64,000 bases of DNA, taken from assembly GCA_022842165.1 (NCBI GenBank), contig JALHQC010000015.1, positions 12,030 through 76,029 on the forward strand. The letters run 5' to 3'. The translations under genes and the position numbers were made by a program. This stretch comes from a bacterium. GTDB taxonomy: Bacteria > Pseudomonadota > Alphaproteobacteria > Rhizobiales > Aestuariivirgaceae. The notes beneath the pieces were generated by a model. That model was not told where the DNA came from. It saw only the letters and a list, made by a program, of their open reading frames with translations, and searched no databases. Of the stretch, positions 27,242-41,224 are shown one piece after another (position 1 is the stretch's first letter; each line of letters opens with the position of its first letter).

Positions 27242-27439
27242 ATGGATTGGGATCGGATCGAAGGAAGCTGGAAGACGTTCAAAGGCAAGGCCAAGACCCA
27301 GTGGGGCAAACTTACCGATGATGATCTCGATGTCATCGAAGGCCGCCGCGATGAACTGGAAGGCCGGTTGCAGAGTGCGTATGGGTATGAAAAGGATCGC
27401 GCCCGCACGGAAGTCGATAGCTGGATGAAATCGCTCTAG
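27242..27439 (+). CDS. csbD: CsbD family general stress protein
   Basis: MDWDRIEGSWK.FKGK.K.QWGKLTDDDL..IEGRR. Confidence 0.92.
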   Translation: MDWDRIEGSWKTFKGKAKTQWGKLTDDDLDVIEGRRDELEGRLQSAYGYEKDRARTEVDSWMKSL

Positions 27440-27973: not shown

Positions 27974-28573
27974 TCATTCGACAGTGCTGCGCACGGCCAA
28001 CGCGGCCTGGACGCGCGGCTCCACTCCGAACTCCGAAGTATCCTTCAGGTGCAGCAGCTCCCCGAGCTTGACACGCGCACGATTGACGCGGCTCTTGATC
28101 GTGCCAACCGCGACTCCGCATATCGCTGCCGCTTCCTCGTAGGACATGTCATTGGCGCTGACCAGAAGCAGCGCTTCGCGCTGATCGACCGGCAGCAGGC
28201 CAAGGGCAACCCGCATGTCGCTCAAATCCATGTAGCTATGCTGGGCCGGGTGAACGCCGACGTTGGCCGCGATAACGCCATCGGCGTCCTCGACCTCGCG
28301 CTTGCGTTTCCGGAATACAGTGTAGAACTCGTTCCGCAGGATGGTGAACAGCCATGCCTTGAGCTTGGTACCCGGTTCGAAGCTGGACCGGTTGGCCCAC
28401 GCCTTCATCAAGGTTTCCTGCACGAGGTCATCCGCGCGGTCGACCTTGCCAGTGAGCGAAATTGCGAAGGCCCTGAGCGGAGGAATAAACGCAATGAGAT
28501 CGTTCTTGAACTCACGATCGCTCATGGGAGACAAAACACTCCGGCCTGCGAATGACTTGACAACCTCAGTCAA
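27974..28573 (-). CDS. ecfG: ECF sigma factor EcfG/SigT (general stress response)
   Basis: LRAFAISL, ADDLVQETL.KAW, AWLFTILRN, GTIKSRVNRAR; downstream of nepR. TTG start overlaps the nepR stop; alternative ATG at 28525. Confidence 0.88.
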   Translation of the reverse strand: MTEVVKSFAGRSVLSPMSDREFKNDLIAFIPPLRAFAISLTGKVDRADDLVQETLMKAWANRSSFEPGTKLKAWLFTILRNEFYTVFRKRKREVEDADGVIAANVGVHPAQHSYMDLSDMRVALGLLPVDQREALLLVSANDMSYEEAAAICGVAVGTIKSRVNRARVKLGELLHLKDTSEFGVEPRVQAALAVRSTVE

Positions 28574-28743
28574 TCTTCACGCTCATCTGCCTTGTCGAGA
28601 TCCTGAAGGAGATCCAAAAACCGCTGCGGCACTTCCTGCCGGGAAATATCATCGTAATAGGCTCTGAGCTTTGTGCTCACAGCCTCCTTGACCACATGCT
28701 GGGCAGCAGAGGCCCTTGTCTTCTTCACTGGTTTGTCGCTCAT
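28570..28743 (-). CDS. nepR: Anti-sigma factor NepR
   Basis: KLRAYYDDI..QEVPQRFLDLL motif; lies between phyR and ecfG. Confidence 0.88.
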   Translation of the reverse strand: MSDKPVKKTRASAAQHVVKEAVSTKLRAYYDDISRQEVPQRFLDLLQDLDKADERED

Positions 28744-28797
28744 TTTTCCGATTTCGCGCGTACCCACCGCCGTCCGGGCAGCGGTCTGATGTTATAA

Positions 28798-28822
28798 AAT
28801 GCATTCAAACGCATCTTGTTCC
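28798..28822 (-). promoter_or_regulatory. EcfG-type promoter for nepR-ecfG
   Basis: Minus strand GGAAC-N16-CATT. Confidence 0.8.
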
Positions 28823-28841
28823 AATAAACTTGAAAAAATGT

Positions 28842-28866
28842 GGAACCGGACGATAAGTTTGGCGTT
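28842..28866 (+). promoter_or_regulatory. EcfG-type promoter for phyR
   Basis: GGAAC-N16-CGTT. Confidence 0.85.
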
Positions 28867-28923
28867 ATTGCATGACAGTCTCTATCAGGGAGGGCCGTGG
28901 CGTCAAGCCATGCCGTTGAATTC

Positions 28924-29718
28924 ATGAGTTTATCTGCCTCTGTTGCGCCGCACCTGCCTTTCTTGCGGCGCTTTGCGCGGGCTTTGACCGGTACCCAGGC
29001 GAGTGGCGATACCTATGTCGCTGCGGTGCTTGAAAGCTTGATTGCCGATCCGTCAATCCTGACGGGCTCAAGCAATCCCAAAATCACCCTCTATCAGACG
29101 CTTTGCACCTTGTGGGGATCGCTGCCGGTTAATGGCGGAAGTGACGTTGGTCAGCCAAGCTGGGAGGCAACAGTTCAGGGCCGCCTCGCCCATCTTCCGG
29201 GACCAGCCCGCCAGGTCTTCCTTCTATCGGCGGTTGAGGGATTCGATCGCCGCGATATCGCGAGGATCGTCAAGCAGACTGACAGCGAGGTCGATGCTCT
29301 CTTCGAGGAAGCCAACCAGCAGATCTCCGAGATGATCGCAAGCGACATTCTCATCATCGAGGACGAGCCGCTTATCGCGCTCGACATCGAAGACACGATT
29401 ACTTCACTTGGCCACCGGTCGGTCGGCATCGCGCGCACGCACAAGGAAGCTGTGAAGCTGGCGCGCGAGACGAATCCGCAGCTTGTACTGTCGGACATTC
29501 AACTCGCCGACGGCAGCTCCGGGATCGACGCCGTCAACGACATACTCCAGAGTTTCGATGTGCCGGTGATCTTCATCACGGCTTTCCCCGAACGTCTGCT
29601 GACCGGCGAGCGCCCTGAACCGGCGTTCCTCATCACCAAACCATTCTCGCCTGAAATGGTAAAGGCCCTCATCGCGCAAGCTTTGTTCTTCGACCTGCGC
29701 TCCAAAAAAGCGGCATAG
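28924..29718 (+). CDS. phyR: PhyR anti-anti-sigma response regulator
   Basis: N-terminal sigma-like domain (LPFLRRFARALTG) plus receiver (IEDEPLIALDI, SDIQLADGSSG, FITAFPERLLTGERPEP). Confidence 0.95.
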   Translation: MSLSASVAPHLPFLRRFARALTGTQASGDTYVAAVLESLIADPSILTGSSNPKITLYQTLCTLWGSLPVNGGSDVGQPSWEATVQGRLAHLPGPARQVFLLSAVEGFDRRDIARIVKQTDSEVDALFEEANQQISEMIASDILIIEDEPLIALDIEDTITSLGHRSVGIARTHKEAVKLARETNPQLVLSDIQLADGSSGIDAVNDILQSFDVPVIFITAFPERLLTGERPEPAFLITKPFSPEMVKALIAQALFFDLRSKKAA

Positions 29719-29735
29719 CAAGCCTTTCGACATGC

Positions 29736-29760
29736 AAAAGGACCCGGCGTGACCGGGTCC
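29736..29760 (-). terminator. Intrinsic terminator for the micropeptide gene (may also serve phyR)
   Basis: 8-bp stem GGACCCGG/CCGGGTCC with AAAA on the plus strand (U tract on the minus strand). Confidence 0.7.
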
Positions 29761-29796
29761 GGTATGGTTCTTTCCGTGTGCCGTTCCTGAATCGTC

Positions 29797-29868
29797 TCAG
29801 AACAAGAGGTAGATCAGGATGATAACGGAGATCGGAACGCCAAGAAGCCACAAAACGATGCCTTTCAT
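29797..29868 (-). CDS. 23-aa hydrophobic micropeptide MKGIVLWLLGVPISVIILIYLLF
   Basis: Below the track cut-off; AGGAGG RBS, own EcfG promoter and own terminator. Confidence 0.8.
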   Translation of the reverse strand: MKGIVLWLLGVPISVIILIYLLF

Positions 29869-29898
29869 GAAATCCTCCTGTCATTGACATGCTGAGGC

Positions 29899-29923
29899 AA
29901 TGCCGCCGGGTGCGCATGGTTCC
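29899..29923 (-). promoter_or_regulatory. EcfG-type promoter for the micropeptide
   Basis: Minus strand GGAAC-N16-CATT, 30 nt upstream of the ATG. Confidence 0.78.
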
Positions 29924-29959: not shown

Positions 29960-30982
29960 ATGGAAGAAACGATGGCAGAAATGACGATACAGCCGGCTTC
30001 GGCCGGAACGGCTCCCAAGCCTGAAACTCGTGCGCACACAGGGCGGACGGCGGTGCTGATCAATGCGCAATCCGGCACAGTGCGCAGCATGGGTGTCGAT
30101 GCCGCTCGAGCACTGGTCGAGTCCGAGCTTTCGAAATGGCCTGCTCCGGCCGAACTCCACATCCTGTCCGGCGCAGAAATCGATAGCACCGTTCGCGACA
30201 TGATCCGTTCAAAGACAGTCTCGGCCATAGTGGCAGGAGGCGGCGACGGCACGATCGCTAGTATTGCCGGGCACCTTGCGGGCACGGACATTGCGCTTGG
30301 CATGCTGCCGCTCGGCACCATGAATCTCATGGCCAAGTCGCTCGATATCAGCCAAGACCTGACTGAAGCGCTGTCGCAGCTCGGCAACGCGACGACACAA
30401 AAGATCGATGTCGGGCGCGTGGATGGCCGCGTGTTCCTCCATCATGTGTCACTCGGCATCCAGCCCCGCATGGTGCGCATCCGCGAAAGACTGGGCTACA
30501 GTTCGCGCTGGACCAAGATGCTGGCGGGAGCGCGCGCCATGCTTTCGGTTATCCTGAAGCCGCAGTCGATGCGGCTGAAAGCCGTTATCGACGGCCAGCC
30601 AAAGGAGATGAAGGCGCCGGCGTTCGTCATCAGCAACAATCGCTACGAGGATTCGGGGTGGATGAAGCACAAGCGCCTCGATGAAGGAGTTCTGGGTGTT
30701 TATGCAGTGAAGCCGATGTCGACCTTGGCTTTTCTGAAACTCGCGATGGACATGCTGCGCGGCCGCTGGCGTGACAACCTGAACGTAGAGGAAGGCAGCG
30801 CGCATGAGGTACGGCTGGAGAAACGGAGAAGGTTTGGCGGCAAGAGCCGGGCGTTGCTTGGTTCGCTGGACGGTGAAGTTACCCTGCTGAGGTCTCCCGT
30901 CGAGATTCGCATCGATCGCAGCGCGCTGAATGTACTGATTCCTCCGGTGGAGAATGCAGGGAATGGGCAGGAACTTTCGTAA
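29960..30982 (+). CDS. Diacylglycerol/lipid kinase family (YegS/BmrU-like)
   Basis: LINAQSG, GGGDGTI, LPLGTMNL.A, IDVG, LDGE; exact start uncertain (29960 or 29972). Confidence 0.85.
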   Translation: MEETMAEMTIQPASAGTAPKPETRAHTGRTAVLINAQSGTVRSMGVDAARALVESELSKWPAPAELHILSGAEIDSTVRDMIRSKTVSAIVAGGGDGTIASIAGHLAGTDIALGMLPLGTMNLMAKSLDISQDLTEALSQLGNATTQKIDVGRVDGRVFLHHVSLGIQPRMVRIRERLGYSSRWTKMLAGARAMLSVILKPQSMRLKAVIDGQPKEMKAPAFVISNNRYEDSGWMKHKRLDEGVLGVYAVKPMSTLAFLKLAMDMLRGRWRDNLNVEEGSAHEVRLEKRRRFGGKSRALLGSLDGEVTLLRSPVEIRIDRSALNVLIPPVENAGNGQELS

Positions 30983-30994
30983 ATCGACGACGTT
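30970..30994 (+). promoter_or_regulatory. EcfG-type promoter for the Pro/Thr-rich protein, overlapping the kinase stop
   Basis: GGAAC-N16-CGTT. Confidence 0.8.
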
Positions 30995-31035
30995 GGGTCG
31001 GTAACGCGGAAAGTTGCATTCAATTCGAGGAGAGC

Positions 31036-31488
31036 GTGAACATGGCCGACAATATTGAGAACCAGTACAATCAGAAAACCACCAGGCCCGCAGGCACAAC
31101 GCCGGTTGGCCAAAGGACATCAACGTCTTCTTCGTCGACGGGCTGGATTCTCGGCGCGGTCATCGCCTTGGCGGCAATCGCGGCGATCTGGTATTACGGC
31201 AGCATGAACAATGTCGATACCGTCGACAACAACGTGAATGTCGAGCAGCCTGCAGTCGTTGCCCCGGGAACGCCGCCAGCCGACACTTCGACGACAGCCA
31301 CGACGCCCCCCGCCGATACGAGCACGACGACCACAATAACGACGCCTCCGGCAGACACGACCGGTACGACAACCCCGCCAGCTGACACGACCGCAACGCA
31401 GCCTGCGGCGCCTGCAACCGACACAACGACGACGGCACCGTCTGCAACCGAAACTACGCCTGCGGTTCCGCCCGCGACGAACCAGTAG
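31036..31488 (+). CDS. Single-TM protein with a Pro/Thr/Ala-rich repetitive C-terminal stalk
   Basis: One TM (WILGAVIALAAIAAIWYY), four TPPADT repeats; GAGGAG RBS. Confidence 0.8.
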   Translation: MNMADNIENQYNQKTTRPAGTTPVGQRTSTSSSSTGWILGAVIALAAIAAIWYYGSMNNVDTVDNNVNVEQPAVVAPGTPPADTSTTATTPPADTSTTTTITTPPADTTGTTTPPADTTATQPAAPATDTTTTAPSATETTPAVPPATNQ

Positions 31489-31571: not shown

Positions 31572-32333
31572 TCAGTCGCGCTCTGTTTCAGTGGGGTATA
31601 CGCCTTTGAGAACCGTCTCGAAGTGCCCCTTGATCACCTCGTGGCATCCACAGGCCCGGGCGCGCAGCCGCTCTTCATCCCGCACGACGAAGTGACCCCG
31701 GCGCACCGCCAGCGTTCCATCTTCCTTGAACGTGCCGACAATGCGGCTGATATAGCTCCTGCCCACGCCTAGCATACCGGCCAGCCGTTCCTGCGTGAGC
31801 GGCACTTCCCGCGATCCCGAGCGTTCGATGGCAGCGCCGATCCATTTTGCCGTCCGCTGCTCGATGGTATGGGCCGCGTTGCAGGCCGCAGACTGGAAAA
31901 GCTGCGCCATGAGGCAATCGGCGTAGCGCGCAAACAGGTTTTCCACTGCCCGGGATTTTGTCTTGCCCTCGTCAAGAACATTGACAGGCAGGGCCAGCAG
32001 TTCGCCTTCGGTTTGAACCAGGATCTTCGAGAAGGCGGGAAGGCTCCCCTGGCTGACGATCCCTCCCACCGCGCCCTCGCGGCCGACGAGCAGAGCTTCG
32101 ACGGCGCCGCCGTCATCAGTGGAAACCAGGAACGACACGAGGGTCTGGTTGCACGGAAAATAAACAGTCTGCACAGTCTCGCCCGGATCGTAGAGGACGG
32201 CGTTCGGCTCATGACGAATGGCCCGCAAGTGAGGGCGCAACAAGTCGAGTTCCGATGGCCGCAGGACCGACAAAAGGTTGTTCCCACCCAGCAATGTATT
32301 CACCAAGGCAGAATTCTCAGAATGTGAGGACAT
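31572..32333 (-). CDS. Crp/Fnr-family transcriptional regulator
   Basis: cNMP-like domain (VYFPC, VGREGAVG) plus CNAAH.IEQR and LTQERLA.MLGVGR.YI HTH. Confidence 0.88.
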   Translation of the reverse strand: MSSHSENSALVNTLLGGNNLLSVLRPSELDLLRPHLRAIRHEPNAVLYDPGETVQTVYFPCNQTLVSFLVSTDDGGAVEALLVGREGAVGGIVSQGSLPAFSKILVQTEGELLALPVNVLDEGKTKSRAVENLFARYADCLMAQLFQSAACNAAHTIEQRTAKWIGAAIERSGSREVPLTQERLAGMLGVGRSYISRIVGTFKEDGTLAVRRGHFVVRDEERLRARACGCHEVIKGHFETVLKGVYPTETERD

Positions 32334-32475
32334 GTGTTCACCAGTGGACAGACAATGGACGCAGCGATGTGTAACGTTCCATTCCAGATCGAAGGCGGGT
32401 GCGCGAATGCGACTCACCTTTCTGCTTTGCGGCGCTCCACCTGAGGCTGCGGAGTTCAGCGGGAACGATTCTTTC

Positions 32476-32500
32476 AACGCTGCTGGGAAGTGTTTGTTCC
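32476..32500 (-). promoter_or_regulatory. EcfG-type promoter for the Crp/Fnr gene
   Basis: Minus strand GGAAC-N16-CGTT. Confidence 0.75.
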
Positions 32501-35487: not shown

Positions 35488-35797
35488 TGTTGTTCTCCTT
35501 TGAGGTTGCTCTTGGTGGTACGGGATCAGGCTCCCGCGGGCTTCGCGGCTTGTCCTTGTTGCGGCGGGGAGCGCCCACCAGCCAGCCAGCGCCTGCCAGC
35601 ACGGCGAGGCTAAGCAGCCTGTGTCTTCCAATGCTCGACCGGATACGGCCAAGCAGCGTCAGATCAGGATCGAGAAATGACATCACGTCCTCGGCAAGCT
35701 GCGGCGGGCTGACACGGGCCTTGAGCTCGGCAACCGTATCCAGGAGTGCCCTGCGGCTCGCGGCGAGTTCGGCCAAGGCTTCGGGCTTTGCTGTCAT
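35315..35797 (-). CDS. DUF3618/YqjK-like protein
   Basis: ELAASRRALLDTVAELKARVSP; TM LLSLAVLAGAGWLVG; ATG overlaps the holin-like stop. Confidence 0.65.
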   Translation of the reverse strand: MTAKPEALAELAASRRALLDTVAELKARVSPPQLAEDVMSFLDPDLTLLGRIRSSIGRHRLLSLAVLAGAGWLVGAPRRNKDKPRSPREPDPVPPRATSKENNNDSGKISGSEWRDLDVATAEESRAEGRRPQGRGKTEAGSGRGGFARHKERRESRPEA

Positions 35798-36195
35798 CGT
35801 CCAGTATCCATGCCGGAACCGCGCGTGAACCAACGGAAGAAAATGCTTTCGGTTTGCCAGGAGAGTGTCTTCCGCATCGCCATGATGGCGATGGCGGCGA
35901 TCGCCAATAGCAGCCCCGTTACCACCAAGGCTGCAAGCCCGGTGCTGCCAAGAACGGGTGTGAGCAGAGCAATCCCCGCCTGCGACAGAGCAATCAATGC
36001 GCACAGGCCAGAGGACAAGGCCAGCATCGCCCATGCCGCTGCGCGAATGACCCGGTTCTTCAGGTCCACGAGTTCGAGCTTGGCCACTTCCGACTCGGCT
36101 GAAGCCCACCTGCGGCCATCGGCCATCAATTTTTCGATAAGCCGGCTGATTTCAATTCGAGGATTGGGGTTCGCGCCGGTCGCACCTTTCAGCAT
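35794..36195 (-). CDS. Phage-holin-superfamily (YqjE-like) membrane protein
   Basis: SAESEVAKLEL..LK followed by two TM helices; start set at ATG 36195 because the promoter overlaps the track start. Confidence 0.7.
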   Translation of the reverse strand: MLKGATGANPNPRIEISRLIEKLMADGRRWASAESEVAKLELVDLKNRVIRAAAWAMLALSSGLCALIALSQAGIALLTPVLGSTGLAALVVTGLLLAIAAIAIMAMRKTLSWQTESIFFRWFTRGSGMDTGR

Positions 36196-36268
36196 CTGGA
36201 AGACATCACTCGCTTGCTGCCGTGACCTGGCATGTGAAGCCGGATATTCATTTTCCGTTACGGGCTGG

Positions 36269-36293
36269 AACGTCACTGCTTCGCAATAGTTCC
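36269..36293 (-). promoter_or_regulatory. EcfG-type promoter for the yqjE/K/D-like operon
   Basis: Minus strand GGAAC-N16-CGTT. Confidence 0.8.
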
Positions 36294-37009: not shown

Positions 37010-37372
37010 TCAATGGCCCCAGTAGGGCGGGACCTGATAGTGCCGATGCACATCGTCTTCCCATTTGCGATTGTCCCAGGAATCATCGCCAAATGCCGGG
37101 GAGTCCTTCAATTGTTCCGCCGCGACACCGGTGATGAAGCCACCGGCGGCCGGATCGTAGCTGAGCTTCGCCCAGGGCAGAGGAAAGTGGCTGTGGCCAA
37201 GCCCCAGGAATCCGCCGAAGCTGATGACGGCATAAACAACGCGGCCCGACCGCTTCTCGATCATCAGATGATCGACCTCGCCGATCGCATTGCCGCTCCC
37301 GTCATAGACGACACAGCCTTCGACATCTTCGCTCGATATGAAGTCGCGGTTCGGATGCACGGTATTTTTCAT
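37010..37372 (-). CDS. PRC-barrel domain protein
   Basis: VEG..VYD..G..IGEVDHLMI.K.SGRVVYAVISFGGFLGLG..HFPLPW..L.YD. Confidence 0.9.
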   Translation of the reverse strand: MKNTVHPNRDFISSEDVEGCVVYDGSGNAIGEVDHLMIEKRSGRVVYAVISFGGFLGLGHSHFPLPWAKLSYDPAAGGFITGVAAEQLKDSPAFGDDSWDNRKWEDDVHRHYQVPPYWGH

Positions 37373-37461: not shown

Positions 37462-37486
37462 GGAACGAAGAGTTTGCAGGGCCGTT
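37462..37486 (+). promoter_or_regulatory. EcfG-type promoter for the SLC13 permease
   Basis: GGAAC-N16-CGTT. Confidence 0.82.
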
Positions 37487-37525
37487 GTGGCGCAAGGGCT
37501 GACCGCCACCGGGGACATCACATTC

Positions 37526-39319
37526 ATGGAACTGACCGCAGACATCATTACCTGCCTCGCTATCCTAGTGTCGGCGATCATCCTGTTCTCATGGGACCGG
37601 ATACCATCGGATGTCGTCGCCCTGGGCGTGCTGCTTGCGGTGGTGGCAACTGGCCTCGTTCCGGCGGAGCAGGCCTTCCTCGGCTTCGGAAGCGGTACGG
37701 TCATCATGATCCTCGGATTTTTCGTGATGACGGCCGCCCTCTCGCACACGGGCATCGTCGATACGGTCGGCATGTGGATACTCTCGCATGTGGGGAACAG
37801 GCCATCGGTTCTCCTCGCGGTCATCATGGTGTCGGTTTCAACCCTGTCGGCCTTCATCAGCAACACCGCCGCCACGGCCTTCTTCATACCCGTCGTGCTG
37901 GGCCTGGCGCTGCGGAACAACACCAGCCCCTCGCGCCTGTTGATGCCTTTGGCCTTCGCCGCCATCCTCACGAGCTCGGTTTCGCTGATCAGCACATCCA
38001 CCAACATGGTGATCAGCGAGTTGATGGTGCGCGGCGGGCAAGCCCCCATGGGCATGTTCGAACTGGCGCCCGCCGGCATACCAGTCGCTATTGCTGGGCT
38101 CGTCTACATGCTGACCATCGGGGTACGGCTCATGCCGAACCGGAAGGCGCAGGAAGCCACGCAGGAAGAGGTTGGAGATCGCAGTTACAATGCCGATCTC
38201 GTCGTACCCGACGACTCGCCGCTGATCGGGGTTCCGCTCGCTCAGTCGCCTGTGGGAACCGATTCCGGCTTCAACGTCGTAAGACTCGTCCGCGATGGCA
38301 AGTCGCTGGCGGACCGCGCGGAGGCTACGCTCGAGGCCGGCGACGTCATCGTTGTCGAAGGCCGGCGCCGCGACCTGATCCGCGTCAAGGATATCAGCGG
38401 ACTCGACATCAAGGCGGATGTCCATCTTCCCGACGAAACGGAGGAAGACGGCGAGGAGCCCTCGATCGTCGAGGGCGTGCTGATGCCGAACTCGCCGCTG
38501 ATCGGACACTCGTTGCGGAGCGCCGAATTCTTCGACCGATACGGTCTCAAGGTCCTTGGCCTCAACCGCGCCAGCCTCACCCGGCCCAGACCCTTGAGCC
38601 AGATCCGCTTGCGGCTTGGCGATGTGCTGTTGCTGCAGGGCAAACCCGAAAACGTCAAGGCACTGGAACGCGGCAACCTGTTCAACATTTTCGGCGGCGT
38701 CCCCACCGAACGGCTCAACACCACTCATGCGGCGCTGGCGGTGGCAATTTTCGCGGCGGCGCTGATCGCCGTGAGCTTTGGCATCGTGGCGATGCCGGTG
38801 GCGGCGATCGGGGGCGCCTTCCTCATGATGCTGACGCGCTGCATTTCCCCCGACGAGGCCTATCGCAAGGTCGAGTGGAAAGTGTTGATCCTGATCGGGT
38901 CGTTGCTGTCGCTGGGTGCTGCCATGGAAGCCAGCGGCGCGGGACAATACCTGGCTGCCATGTTGATCCAAGTTGTCGGCGACCAGAGCCCGCTGCTGGT
39001 TCTGGGCTGCTTCTTCGTCTTGACGGTGGCACTGACACAGCCGATGTCGAACCAGGCCGCAGCAATCGTCGTGGTGCCGATCGCCTTCGAGACGGCCCGT
39101 CAGCTCAACCTCAACCCGCGCAGCTTTGCGATGATGATCGCCATCGCTGCAAGCTGTTCGTATCTGACGCCGCTGGAGCCTTCGAGCCTCATGGTCTATG
39201 GCCCAGGCAAATACCGCTTCATGGATTTCGTGCGCGTCGGCTTCCCTTTGACGTTTCTGATTTTCGCGATCGCCATGATTCTGGTGCCGATCATCTGGCC
39301 GCTGTCGGCACCGGCTTAA
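37526..39319 (+). CDS. SLC13/DASS-family permease with two TrkA-C (RCK-C) domains
   Basis: SAFISNTA, STSTNMV, two RCK-C-like repeats, MSNQAAA, YLTPL, GPG.YRFMDF.RVG; ATG 37526 follows the promoter. Confidence 0.88.
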   Translation: MELTADIITCLAILVSAIILFSWDRIPSDVVALGVLLAVVATGLVPAEQAFLGFGSGTVIMILGFFVMTAALSHTGIVDTVGMWILSHVGNRPSVLLAVIMVSVSTLSAFISNTAATAFFIPVVLGLALRNNTSPSRLLMPLAFAAILTSSVSLISTSTNMVISELMVRGGQAPMGMFELAPAGIPVAIAGLVYMLTIGVRLMPNRKAQEATQEEVGDRSYNADLVVPDDSPLIGVPLAQSPVGTDSGFNVVRLVRDGKSLADRAEATLEAGDVIVVEGRRRDLIRVKDISGLDIKADVHLPDETEEDGEEPSIVEGVLMPNSPLIGHSLRSAEFFDRYGLKVLGLNRASLTRPRPLSQIRLRLGDVLLLQGKPENVKALERGNLFNIFGGVPTERLNTTHAALAVAIFAAALIAVSFGIVAMPVAAIGGAFLMMLTRCISPDEAYRKVEWKVLILIGSLLSLGAAMEASGAGQYLAAMLIQVVGDQSPLLVLGCFFVLTVALTQPMSNQAAAIVVVPIAFETARQLNLNPRSFAMMIAIAASCSYLTPLEPSSLMVYGPGKYRFMDFVRVGFPLTFLIFAIAMILVPIIWPLSAPA

Positions 39320-39379
39320 GGCGCAGCCAGCAGCAAGCTTCCAGCAGATCGTGTCAGAGGTGCGGGCGGGGCGCATTCC

Positions 39380-39404
39380 GGAACTTCGGCTCCGACCAGC
39401 GGTT
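39380..39404 (+). promoter_or_regulatory. Variant EcfG-type promoter for yciF
   Basis: GGAAC-N16-GGTT. Confidence 0.55.
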
Positions 39405-39483
39405 GCTGATCCGGATCGCAAATGGCAACGCAACATCAAGCCGCGAAGCCCGTTCTGCAATATTTAATGGCGAGGAGCCTAAC

Positions 39484-39975
39484 ATGGCCGTGCAAACACT
39501 ACAGGATCTGTTCATCGAGACGCTCAAAGACCTCTACTATGTGGAGAAGACGCTGGTGAAAAGCCTGCCCAACATGGCCCGCAAGGCGTCATCCCCCGAT
39601 CTTCAGGCGGCGATCGAAAGTCACATCGCGGAAACCGAGGCCCAGGTCGGAAGGATCGAACAGATTTTCGAACTGCTAGGCGAGCGCGCGGCGGCCAAGA
39701 AATGCGAGGCACTGGAAGGCCTGTTGAAAGAAGCCGACGAAGTGACGCAGCAAATCAACGACAGGCAGACCCTCGATGCCGCCATCATCGCGTCGGCGCA
39801 GACGGTCGAGCACTACGAGATTGCGCGCTACGGTACGCTGGCCTGCTGGGCCGCTGAAATCGGCCAGGCCGAGATAGCACAACTCCTCGAACAGACGCTG
39901 GATGAGGAACGGGCCGCCGATGACAAGCTCAGCATGCTGGCAGAGAATTCTGTCAACCAGCAGGCGGTTGCCTGA
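39484..39975 (+). CDS. yciF: Ferritin-like DUF892 / YciF stress protein
   Basis: LKDLYYVEK, H..ETE.QV.RIEQIF, KCEALEGLLKE, VEHYEIARYGTL; GAGGAG RBS. Confidence 0.9.
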   Translation: MAVQTLQDLFIETLKDLYYVEKTLVKSLPNMARKASSPDLQAAIESHIAETEAQVGRIEQIFELLGERAAAKKCEALEGLLKEADEVTQQINDRQTLDAAIIASAQTVEHYEIARYGTLACWAAEIGQAEIAQLLEQTLDEERAADDKLSMLAENSVNQQAVA

Positions 39976-41167: not shown

Positions 41168-41199
41168 GCTCCACCATCACCGGCAGGTGTCCGGAGCGG

Positions 41200-41224
41200 A
41201 ACGGCGCAAAACTGGCAGGGTTCC
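41200..41224 (-). promoter_or_regulatory. EcfG-type promoter for the DoxX-like gene
   Basis: Minus strand GGAAC-N16-CGTT, 32 nt upstream of the ATG. Confidence 0.82.

What the first reader, a model, noticed from the sequence alone, without database searches (positions are those of the whole stretch)
29736..29923. Complete stress-sigma transcription unit for a 23-aa membrane micropeptide
Sequence (minus strand): GGAAC-N16-CATT promoter, AGGAGG RBS, ORF MKGIVLWLLGVPISVIILIYLLF, then a hairpin with a U tract. The whole unit is about 190 bp, convergent on phyR and missed by the ORF track. The peptide is one helix with a central GVP kink. I recall similar MxxxLLWLLGvPi peptides in alphaproteobacteria without an assigned function. 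Inference: it may modulate a membrane protein, such as a GSR sensor kinase or one of the island's transporters.
Basis: partly seen in the sequence, partly recalled or inferred. Interest (0 to 1): 0.75.

Follow-up and report, generated by a model that had tools for sequence, protein, structure and literature searches.

The report
Stress-promoter 23-residue membrane micropeptide gene
This is a real but unannotated 23-codon gene for a tiny membrane peptide behind a general-stress promoter next to phyR; it belongs to an unnamed, very conserved peptide family found across Proteobacteria, so it is a solid new small-protein gene, not a new kind of system.

Summary
On the minus strand lie GGAAC-N16-CATT (29923..29899), AGGAGG (29879..29874), a 23-codon ORF (29868..29797) and a 9-bp hairpin with UUUU (29760..29736). 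The unit is convergent on phyR.

The ORF is a real coding gene:
- 138 related loci encode 119 distinct peptides of 23-29 aa with a nearly invariant W-x2-G-x-P-I-P core.
- Substitutions follow a coding pattern (diversity by codon position 4.6/1.1/11.0).
- 29 of the first 30 loci have an SD-like motif.

74 of 138 loci have a strict EcfG box, with GGAAC a median 59 nt before the ATG (55 nt here). Beta and gamma members have none. This genome's own nepR-ecfG promoter also reads GGAAC-N16-CATT.

The family has no Pfam or NCBIfam model and is usually left uncalled. phyR is adjacent in 11 loci.

The strongest functional lead is an equally unnamed ~300-aa four-helix membrane protein. It lies next to the peptide in 26 loci, and 26 of 39 partner-bearing genomes also carry the peptide, against 31 of 361 without the partner.

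This scan has met the same family before on other DNA (e1-5274716, e1-5272976).

The parts
29919..29923 (-). -35 element GGAAC of the EcfG-type promoter
   Evidence: Sequence and pattern scan. GGAAC starts 55 nt before the ATG; the family median is 59, IQR 55-63.
29899..29902 (-). -10 element CATT after a 16-nt spacer (variant of the CGTT consensus)
   Evidence: The nepR-ecfG promoter of this genome has the same GGAAC-N16-CATT. EcfG-dependent S. melonis genes #1442 and #1831 also have CATT (PMC6599016).
29874..29879 (-). Shine-Dalgarno AGGAGG, 5 nt before the ATG
   Evidence: An SD-like motif is present in 29 of the first 30 family loci. It is unpaired in the centroid fold of the predicted transcript.
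29797..29868 (-). 23-codon ORF plus TGA stop: MKGIVLWLLGVPISVIILIYLLF
   Evidence: Family alignment A1. Coding substitution pattern. 119 unique homologs.
29736..29760 (-). Intrinsic terminator: 9-bp G+C-rich hairpin followed by UUUU
   Evidence: Terminator scan. Fold of -26.4 kcal/mol, z -2.6.
28897..29718 (+). phyR (anti-anti-sigma response regulator), convergent neighbour
   Evidence: NF006623, E 3e-105; PF22029, PF22233 and PF00072.
28842..28866 (+). phyR promoter GGAAC-N16-CGTT
   Evidence: Pattern scan; sequence.
28798..28822 (-). nepR-ecfG promoter GGAAC-N16-CATT, the internal yardstick for the CATT -10
28570..28767 (-). nepR (anti-sigma factor)
   Evidence: PF18557 NepR on the identical gene of metagenome contigs.
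27974..28573 (-). ecfG (ECF sigma factor of the general stress response)
   Evidence: NF009199, E 1.5e-76; Sigma70_r2 and r4_2.
29972..30982 (+). YegS/MamU-like lipid kinase, divergent neighbour; also adjacent in L006 and L018
   Evidence: PF00781 and PF19279. Called start. Synteny.

Best explanation
Shown by comparison: 29868..29797 (minus strand) is a genuine protein-coding gene for a 23-residue hydrophobic peptide. It belongs to an unnamed, strongly constrained family of 23-29 aa. The family has an N-terminal M-(G)-R/K-G, an almost invariant W-x2-G-x-P-I-P core and a hydrophobic tail, and it occurs across Pseudomonadota.

Inferred from sequence signals: in this alphaproteobacterium the gene is transcribed as a monocistronic RNA of about 155 nt. 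Transcription starts from a sigma-EcfG promoter (GGAAC-N16-CATT) and ends at its own terminator. The peptide would therefore be made when the PhyR-NepR-EcfG general stress response is switched on, together with the neighbouring CsbD, DUF1328, PRC-barrel and DUF892 genes.

Inferred mechanism, my estimate about 35-40%: the peptide inserts into the inner membrane with its basic N-terminus in the cytoplasm. Through the conserved Gly/Trp/Pro face it binds a larger membrane protein and stabilises or modulates it. The best candidate target is the uncharacterised ~300-aa four-helix membrane protein family that is co-transcribed with the peptide in many genomes. This genome has only a distant, unlinked paralogue of that protein (contig C34), which also has an EcfG-like box.

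The confidence value applies to the gene, the family and the EcfG promoter, not to the target.
For: Gene and family:
- The peptide was found in 30 of 100 genomes of the same family, 57 of 400 of the class, and 15 genomes outside the class.
- 138 of 139 retrieved loci contain the micro-ORF.
- Diversity by codon position is 4.64/1.12/10.98, and synonymous codon differences outnumber non-synonymous ones 1831 to 869.
- ATG and an SD are present in 29 of 30 loci.
- It is always a stand-alone micro-ORF and never a fusion.

Promoter:
- A strict GGAAC-N16/17-[CG]GTT lies within 110 nt upstream in 74 of 138 loci (loose form in 93 of 138). The background is 0.027 per 100 nt.
- The position is fixed: median 59 nt, IQR 55-63, and 55 nt here.
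- No beta or gamma member has the box.
- The window holds 12 strict boxes against about 2 expected, next to classic GSR genes.
- The nepR-ecfG promoter uses the same CATT.
- CATT promoters are EcfG-dependent in S. melonis (PMC6599016).

Terminator. SD open in the fold.

Partner:
- It is adjacent on the same strand in 26 of 138 loci, with a median gap of 12 nt and in either gene order, in alpha, beta and gamma lineages.
- 26 of 39 partner-bearing genomes have the peptide, against 31 of 361 without the partner. The two genes are adjacent in 13 of those 26.
- The paralogue on C34 has GGAAC-N16-AGTT about 65 nt upstream of its start.
Against: - There is no transcript, ribosome or protein evidence for this organism.
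- No paper in the library prints the peptide.
- The -10 is CATT, not CGTT.
- The window's copy is atypical: Ser replaces the second Pro (3 of 119 peptides) and it has the minimum length (4 of 119).
- A same-genus relative (L004) lacks both the SD and the box.
- The partner is not next to the peptide here. A single-sequence search did not find it in this genome; only the profile did, and weakly (E 8e-27).
- 31 genomes have the peptide without any detectable partner, so the partner cannot be its only target.
- Related genomes are not independent, so the co-occurrence figures overstate the support.
Confidence: 0.72

Rival explanations
1. The peptide acts on the lipid bilayer itself rather than on a protein. 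One version is a stress-induced membrane modulator, for example a Pro-knot hairpin sitting in the inner leaflet. Another is a mild depolariser that slows growth, working like the small hydrophobic type I toxins (TisB, HokB).
For: - GRAVY is 2.3, with 20 consecutive hydrophobic residues and a central G-x-P-x-P.
- Subtype B peptides carry a basic residue at both ends in 52 of 55 cases, which fits both termini on the cytoplasmic side.
- 31 genomes have the peptide without the partner.
- The gene is induced by a stress sigma factor.
Against: - There is no toxin-type control. The SD is strong and unpaired in the predicted transcript, and no known antisense or sRNA family reaches threshold at the locus.
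- It is single copy here.
- Extreme sequence constraint across a whole phylum is unlike type I toxins, which are narrow in range and variable (my own knowledge).
- Invariant Gly, Trp and Pro positions suggest a specific contact.
Confidence: 0.13
2. One reading: the peptide feeds back on general stress signalling by binding a membrane-bound HWE/HisKA2 sensor kinase or phosphotransferase. This would be loosely like Prli42 tethering the Listeria stressosome, and would explain why the gene sits beside phyR.
For: - phyR lies within 1.5 kb in 11 loci: four genera of the window's family plus other lineages including a Rhizobiaceae and a Hyphomicrobiaceae MAG.
- 9 of these 11 loci have at least the loose EcfG box.
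Against: - 127 of 138 loci are not near phyR.
- The family also exists in beta- and gammaproteobacteria, which have no PhyR system.
- EcfG targets commonly cluster around phyR, so adjacency is weak evidence.
- No kinase gene recurs next to the peptide.
Confidence: 0.07
3. The unit is transcribed but acts as a small RNA, or is not expressed at all, and the ORF is incidental.
For: - A sub-threshold, end-to-end match to the Rfam 'sRNA' family Atu_C9 (19.3 bits against a gathering score of 40).
- No expression data.
Against: - The substitution pattern is that of a protein.
- Flanks are unrelated between lineages while the 25 codons persist.
- The fold of the transcript is not exceptional (z -1.6).
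- 0 of 16 family loci reach the Atu_C9 threshold.
- The Atu_C9 consensus itself contains a different SD-led hydrophobic micro-ORF.
Confidence: 0.03

Closest known systems
EcfG (ECF15; SigT, RpoE2) general stress regulons of Alphaproteobacteria, e.g. Sphingomonas melonis Fr1 (PMC6599016)
   Same: The promoter architecture is the same: GGAAC, a 16-17 nt spacer, then (C/G)GTT or CATT, about 55-60 nt before the start codon. The gene sits beside phyR/nepR/ecfG among typical regulon members (CsbD, DUF1328, PRC-barrel, DUF892).
   Different: This peptide family is not listed in any regulon paper I could search, and dependence on EcfG is inferred only. The family is older and wider than the EcfG system.
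Stress-induced small inner-membrane proteins of E. coli that bind larger membrane proteins (MgtS, AcrZ, KdpF, CydX; named from my own knowledge)
   Same: They share size class, a single hydrophobic helix, stress-dependent expression, frequent omission from annotation, and in many genomes co-transcription with a polytopic membrane protein.
   Different: There is no sequence similarity (no Pfam, NCBIfam or PDB match). The target here is unknown. The conserved W-x2-G-x-P-I-P core is not found in those peptides.
The same unnamed peptide family noted earlier in this scan (e1-5274716; e1-5272976)
   Same: It is the same family, with the same EcfG-type promoter and the same ~300-aa unnamed membrane neighbour. 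I re-derived all of this independently.
   Different: This copy is the phyR-linked, 23-aa, Pro-to-Ser variant with a CATT -10. The Bradyrhizobium-type copies lie between glyoxalase and GST genes.
Rfam RF02503 Atu_C9 (Rhizobiales 'sRNA')
   Same: Both are units of about 190 nt with an SD, an ATG, a U-rich hydrophobic micro-ORF and a terminator. The model aligns end to end.
   Different: The score is 19.3 bits against a gathering score of 40. The encoded peptide is different, and 0 of 16 family loci match. It is not a member.
Type I toxin peptides (TisB, HokB, Ibs, Ldr; my own knowledge)
   Same: They are tiny, very hydrophobic, stress-induced and usually unannotated.
   Different: There is no antisense partner or SD-sequestering fold. 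The gene is single copy, is conserved across a phylum under strong purifying selection, and is often in an operon with a housekeeping-looking membrane protein.

Membership tests
Unnamed W-x2-G-x-P-I-P micropeptide family (alignment A1) | Stand-alone micro-ORF of 23-29 codons with ATG and SD | tested here: met
   23 codons, with AGGAGG 5 nt upstream. Family lengths are 23-29 aa.
Unnamed W-x2-G-x-P-I-P micropeptide family (alignment A1) | N-terminal M-(G)-R/K-G with net charge +1 before the Trp | tested here: met
   The window has MKG. 113 of 119 peptides have net +1.
Unnamed W-x2-G-x-P-I-P micropeptide family (alignment A1) | Invariant Trp, Gly and first Pro (W7, G10, P12) | tested here: met
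   HMM E-value 8.4e-11 for the window copy.
Unnamed W-x2-G-x-P-I-P micropeptide family (alignment A1) | Second Pro (P14) | tested here: not met
   The window has Ser, as do only 3 of 119 peptides, including L004 and L036. This is a minor variant, not an exclusion.
EcfG (general stress) regulon | -35 GGAAC with a 16-17 nt spacer, at the family's usual distance from the ATG | tested here: met
EcfG (general stress) regulon | -10 CGTT | tested here: inconclusive
   The window has CATT. The genome's nepR-ecfG promoter has the same variant, as do EcfG-dependent S. melonis genes.
EcfG (general stress) regulon | Transcription depends on EcfG/PhyR and rises under stress | not testable with these tools
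Type I toxin-antitoxin | Antisense or overlapping RNA, or an SD-sequestering mRNA fold | tested here: not met
   The SD is unpaired in the centroid fold. No RNA family reaches threshold. An unknown antisense RNA cannot be excluded without RNA-seq.
Type I toxin-antitoxin | Toxicity on overexpression | not testable with these tools
   This needs an experiment.
Rfam RF02503 Atu_C9 | Score at or above the gathering threshold (40 bits) | tested here: not met
   19.3 bits. 0 of 16 family loci match.
Any curated protein family (Pfam-A, NCBIfam) or solved structure | Significant profile match | tested here: not met
   There were no matches for the window peptide. Only chance-level hits appeared among 30 members, and there was no PDB hit.

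The most novel reading that the evidence does not exclude
The peptide is the dedicated small subunit or regulator of the unnamed four-helix ~300-aa membrane protein family. That family has more than 7,700 members, no Pfam domain and conserved GGYxxGRLR...DE.FFRDTAHGF and GGRxRD motifs. Together they would form a previously unrecognised membrane module found across Proteobacteria, which Alphaproteobacteria have wired into the general stress response. In the phyR-linked lineages, such as this one, the peptide may have been uncoupled from the partner and may act on another target.
Probability: 0.3. Interest if true: 0.6.

Novelty: new member of a known kind. Interest (0 to 1): 0.45.

Why it matters
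Small membrane proteins are the least annotated part of bacterial genomes, and the alphaproteobacterial general stress regulon still consists largely of genes of unknown function.

This is a peptide family with near-invariant residues across a phylum. It has no name, no curated model and usually no gene call. It does have a clear regulatory input (EcfG) and a concrete candidate partner, so its function can be tested directly with simple genetics in model species such as Bradyrhizobium, Rhodopseudomonas, Methylobacterium or Pseudomonas.

In practical terms, a profile built from alignment A1 would let annotation pipelines call this gene. Regulon studies that count only annotated CDSs are missing it.

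Tried and rejected
1. The search for homologous proteins refuses queries under 40 aa and structure prediction needs at least 30 aa. So there was no protein-database search and no model of the peptide itself.
2. tblastn of a family peptide against the plasmid collection found nothing, probably because of the low-complexity filter. A DNA search did find it in about 35 rhizobial chromids and plasmids, mostly with no feature under the match.
4. The literature gave nothing direct. No paper prints the core sequence. The supplements of the S. meliloti Ribo-seq paper, the B. japonicum sORF and TSS papers and the S. meliloti TSS/RpoE2 paper do not contain it.
5. Rfam Atu_C9 looked like published transcript evidence, but it is a different micro-ORF unit.
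6. The AlphaFold2 model of the partner was too poor (pLDDT 57, pTM 0.40) for a fold search. Profile searches of the partner against the PDB and Pfam gave only chance hits.
7. Hits inside long open frames were checked as possible fusions. They are stand-alone ORFs with their own SD.
8. Genome-wide counting of the bare GGAAC-N16/17-CGTT pattern shows no enrichment over permuted -10 tetramers. The pattern alone is therefore weak evidence; the case rests on position, local clustering and conservation.
9. I could not name the organism. It is an alphaproteobacterium of 4.3 Mb and 62% G+C, and the identical locus occurs in a wastewater metagenome.

Full report
**1. What is in the sequence**

The minus strand between 29923 and 29736 reads as follows:
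- GGAAC (29923..29919), a 16-nt spacer, then CATT (29902..29899).
- AGGAGG (29879..29874), 5 nt before the start codon.
- ATG at 29868, 23 codons (MKGIVLWLLGVPISVIILIYLLF) and TGA (29799..29797).
- A 9-bp hairpin with 7 G-C pairs at 29760..29740, followed by UUUU.

The folded 3' region has -26.4 kcal/mol, z = -2.6. The open frame is only 27 codons long.

The unit lies inside the core general stress response (GSR) locus:
- ecfG at 28573..27974 (-).
- nepR at 28767..28570 (-).
- phyR at 28897..29718 (+).
- The micro-ORF (-).
- A YegS/MamU-like lipid kinase from 29972 (+).

Gene callers applied to metagenome contigs that carry the identical locus call all of these genes except the micro-ORF.

**2. 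It is a real coding gene of a large family**

Six-frame searches found the peptide in:
- 30 of 100 genomes of the window's family.
- 57 of 400 genomes sampled evenly over the class.
- 15 genomes outside the class.

A scan of named genomes returned it from Sphingomonas, Sphingobium, Bradyrhizobium, Rhodopseudomonas, Nitrobacter, Methylobacterium, Rhizobium, Ensifer, Mesorhizobium, Azospirillum, Roseomonas and Belnapia. It also returned it from Pseudomonas, Achromobacter, a Steroidobacteraceae MAG and betaproteobacterial MAGs.

In 138 of 139 loci I could delimit a micro-ORF of 23-29 codons, giving 119 different peptides. They show:
- One net positive charge at the N-terminus in 113 of 119.
- A W-x2-G-x-P-I-P core that hardly varies.
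- A hydrophobic tail.

Among 21 gap-free members, nucleotide diversity by codon position is 4.64/1.12/10.98. Synonymous codon differences outnumber non-synonymous ones 1831 to 869. 29 of the first 30 loci have an SD-like motif before an ATG. The flanks are unrelated between lineages.

Hits that seemed to lie inside long open frames are also stand-alone ORFs with their own SD. A non-coding reading is therefore very unlikely.

The window's copy is an unusual but natural variant. It has Ser instead of the second Pro (3 of 119) and the minimum length (4 of 119). The C-terminus ...LIYLLF also appears in L075.

**3. Regulation**

A strict GGAAC-N16/17-[CG]GTT lies within 110 nt upstream in 74 of 138 loci, and the loose form in 93 of 138. 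The background in the same loci is 0.027 per 100 nt. GGAAC starts a median 59 nt (IQR 55-63) before the ATG, and 55 nt in the window. None of the beta or gamma members, whose hosts lack EcfG, has the box. They serve as a natural control.

The window's -10 is CATT rather than CGTT. Two facts make this acceptable:
- The nepR-ecfG promoter of this very genome reads GGAAC-N16-CATT. It sits back to back with the phyR promoter GGAAC-N16-CGTT.
- The EcfG-dependent S. melonis genes #1442 and #1831 are listed with CATT boxes (PMC6599016).

The bare pattern is not specific genome-wide. There are 138 strict matches, with no excess over permuted tetramers. The window, however, holds 12 where about 2 are expected, and they stand before classic GSR genes: CsbD, DUF1328, PRC-barrel, DUF892, a holin-X-like gene and a Crp-family regulator.

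EcfG dependence is thus a well-supported inference, but it is not shown.

**4. Is it known?**

- There is no Pfam or NCBIfam match for the window peptide or for 30 members.
- There is no PDB match.
- The few members on record are JGI 'hypothetical protein' or unnamed.
- In the roughly 20 RefSeq chromid or plasmid records that carry annotation, nearly all have no feature under the match. The PLSDB gene table is incomplete, so this is only indicative.
- No paper in the library prints the core sequence, and four relevant supplements lack it.
- A sub-threshold end-to-end match to the Rfam sRNA family Atu_C9 turned out to be a different SD-led micro-ORF unit.
- Earlier notes of this scan had already found the same family on other DNA and reached the same reading (e1-5274716, e1-5272976). 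I re-derived each point independently.

**5. Clues to function**

Neighbour clustering over all loci gave two recurrent links.

(a) phyR lies within 1.5 kb in 11 loci. Seven are from four genera of the window's family, usually in the same convergent arrangement. Four come from other lineages.

(b) A ~300-aa protein lies directly beside the peptide on the same strand in 26 loci. The median gap is 12 nt, and either gene can come first. These loci come from alpha-, beta- and gammaproteobacteria.
- The protein has four long hydrophobic helices, an Ala-rich linker and a helical soluble part.
- It has invariant GGY..GR.R, E...RD.AHG..W and GG..RD motifs.
- It has no Pfam or NCBIfam model.
- It has more than 7,700 homologues, all labelled 'hypothetical' or, oddly, 'PhnA-like'.

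In the class sample, 26 of 39 genomes with the partner also have the peptide, against 31 of 361 without it. In 13 of the 26 the two genes are adjacent. Related genomes are not independent, so this is a lead and not a statistic.

In the window's genome, only a distant paralogue of the partner exists, on contig C34 (E 8e-27). It also has GGAAC-N16-AGTT about 65 nt before its start.

The variable gene order, and the many stand-alone copies with their own terminator, argue against a mere leader peptide.

**6. Mechanism**

I commit to the following. It is a GSR-induced inner-membrane micropeptide with its basic N-terminus inside. It works by helix-to-helix contact through its conserved Gly/Trp/Pro positions with a larger membrane protein. 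The four-helix family is the leading candidate, at about 35-40%.

Alternatives:
- A direct effect on the bilayer or on membrane potential. Subtype B peptides are basic at both ends in 52 of 55 cases, which would fit a Pro-knot hairpin. Against a toxin, the SD is open, the gene is single copy and the constraint is phylum-wide.
Only the phyR linkage supports this.
- An RNA-only function, which the coding signature contradicts.

**7. Verdict**

This is a new, unnamed small-protein family inside a well-known kind of system (stress-regulon small membrane proteins), and this scan has already met it elsewhere. Interest is moderate, at 0.45. It would rise if the peptide and partner prove to be a functional membrane module.

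Noticed in passing
window 27149-53212: There are 12 strict GGAAC-N16/17-[CG]GTT boxes in the window against about 2 expected from the genome rate. They precede CsbD (27242-27439 +), a Crp-family regulator (32477..31572 -), a holin-X-like gene (36276..35794 -), a PRC-barrel gene (37372..37010 -), a DUF892-containing ORF (37474-39975 +) and others. This is a general stress response island around phyR/nepR/ecfG.
   Followed up: partly
window 28798-28866: The phyR and nepR-ecfG promoters lie back to back. phyR has GGAAC-N16-CGTT and nepR-ecfG has GGAAC-N16-CATT, so the autoregulatory promoter of the sigma factor itself uses the CATT -10 variant.
   Followed up: yes
window 36267-36293 and 41198-41224: Two segments of about 27 bp read as an EcfG box on both strands (GGAAC-N15/16-xGTTCC), because the reverse complement of the -35 supplies the GTT of a -10. 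On one strand each faces a plausible gene start. Whether the opposite direction is used is unclear.
   Followed up: partly
window 30970-31488: A perfect GGAAC-N16-CGTT at 30970 (+), inside the 3' end of the lipid kinase gene, precedes a 150-aa ORF (31036-31488 +) that has no Pfam family.
   Followed up: no
Rfam RF02503 (Atu_C9) consensus, seen in the alignment to window 29889..29707: The consensus of this Rhizobiales 'sRNA' family contains AGGAgg, an AUG five bases later, about 25 mostly hydrophobic codons and a UGA. The catalogued sRNA may itself be the mRNA of a membrane micropeptide.
   Followed up: partly
L121:4082-4993 (+) and alignment A2; own genome C34:13210-14089 (+): This is a large membrane protein family (more than 7,700 members) of about 300 aa with four hydrophobic helices. 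It has no Pfam or NCBIfam model and is labelled 'hypothetical' or 'PhnA-like'. Its motifs GGY..GR.R, E...RD.AHG..W and GG..RD are invariant. It is often co-transcribed with the micropeptide. The paralogue in the window's genome has GGAAC-N16-AGTT upstream.
   Followed up: partly
L065-L138 (Bradyrhizobium and relatives): In Bradyrhizobium-type loci the micropeptide gene sits between a glyoxalase-family gene (upstream, same strand) and a glutathione S-transferase gene (downstream). This synteny is conserved in about 25 loci.
   Followed up: partly
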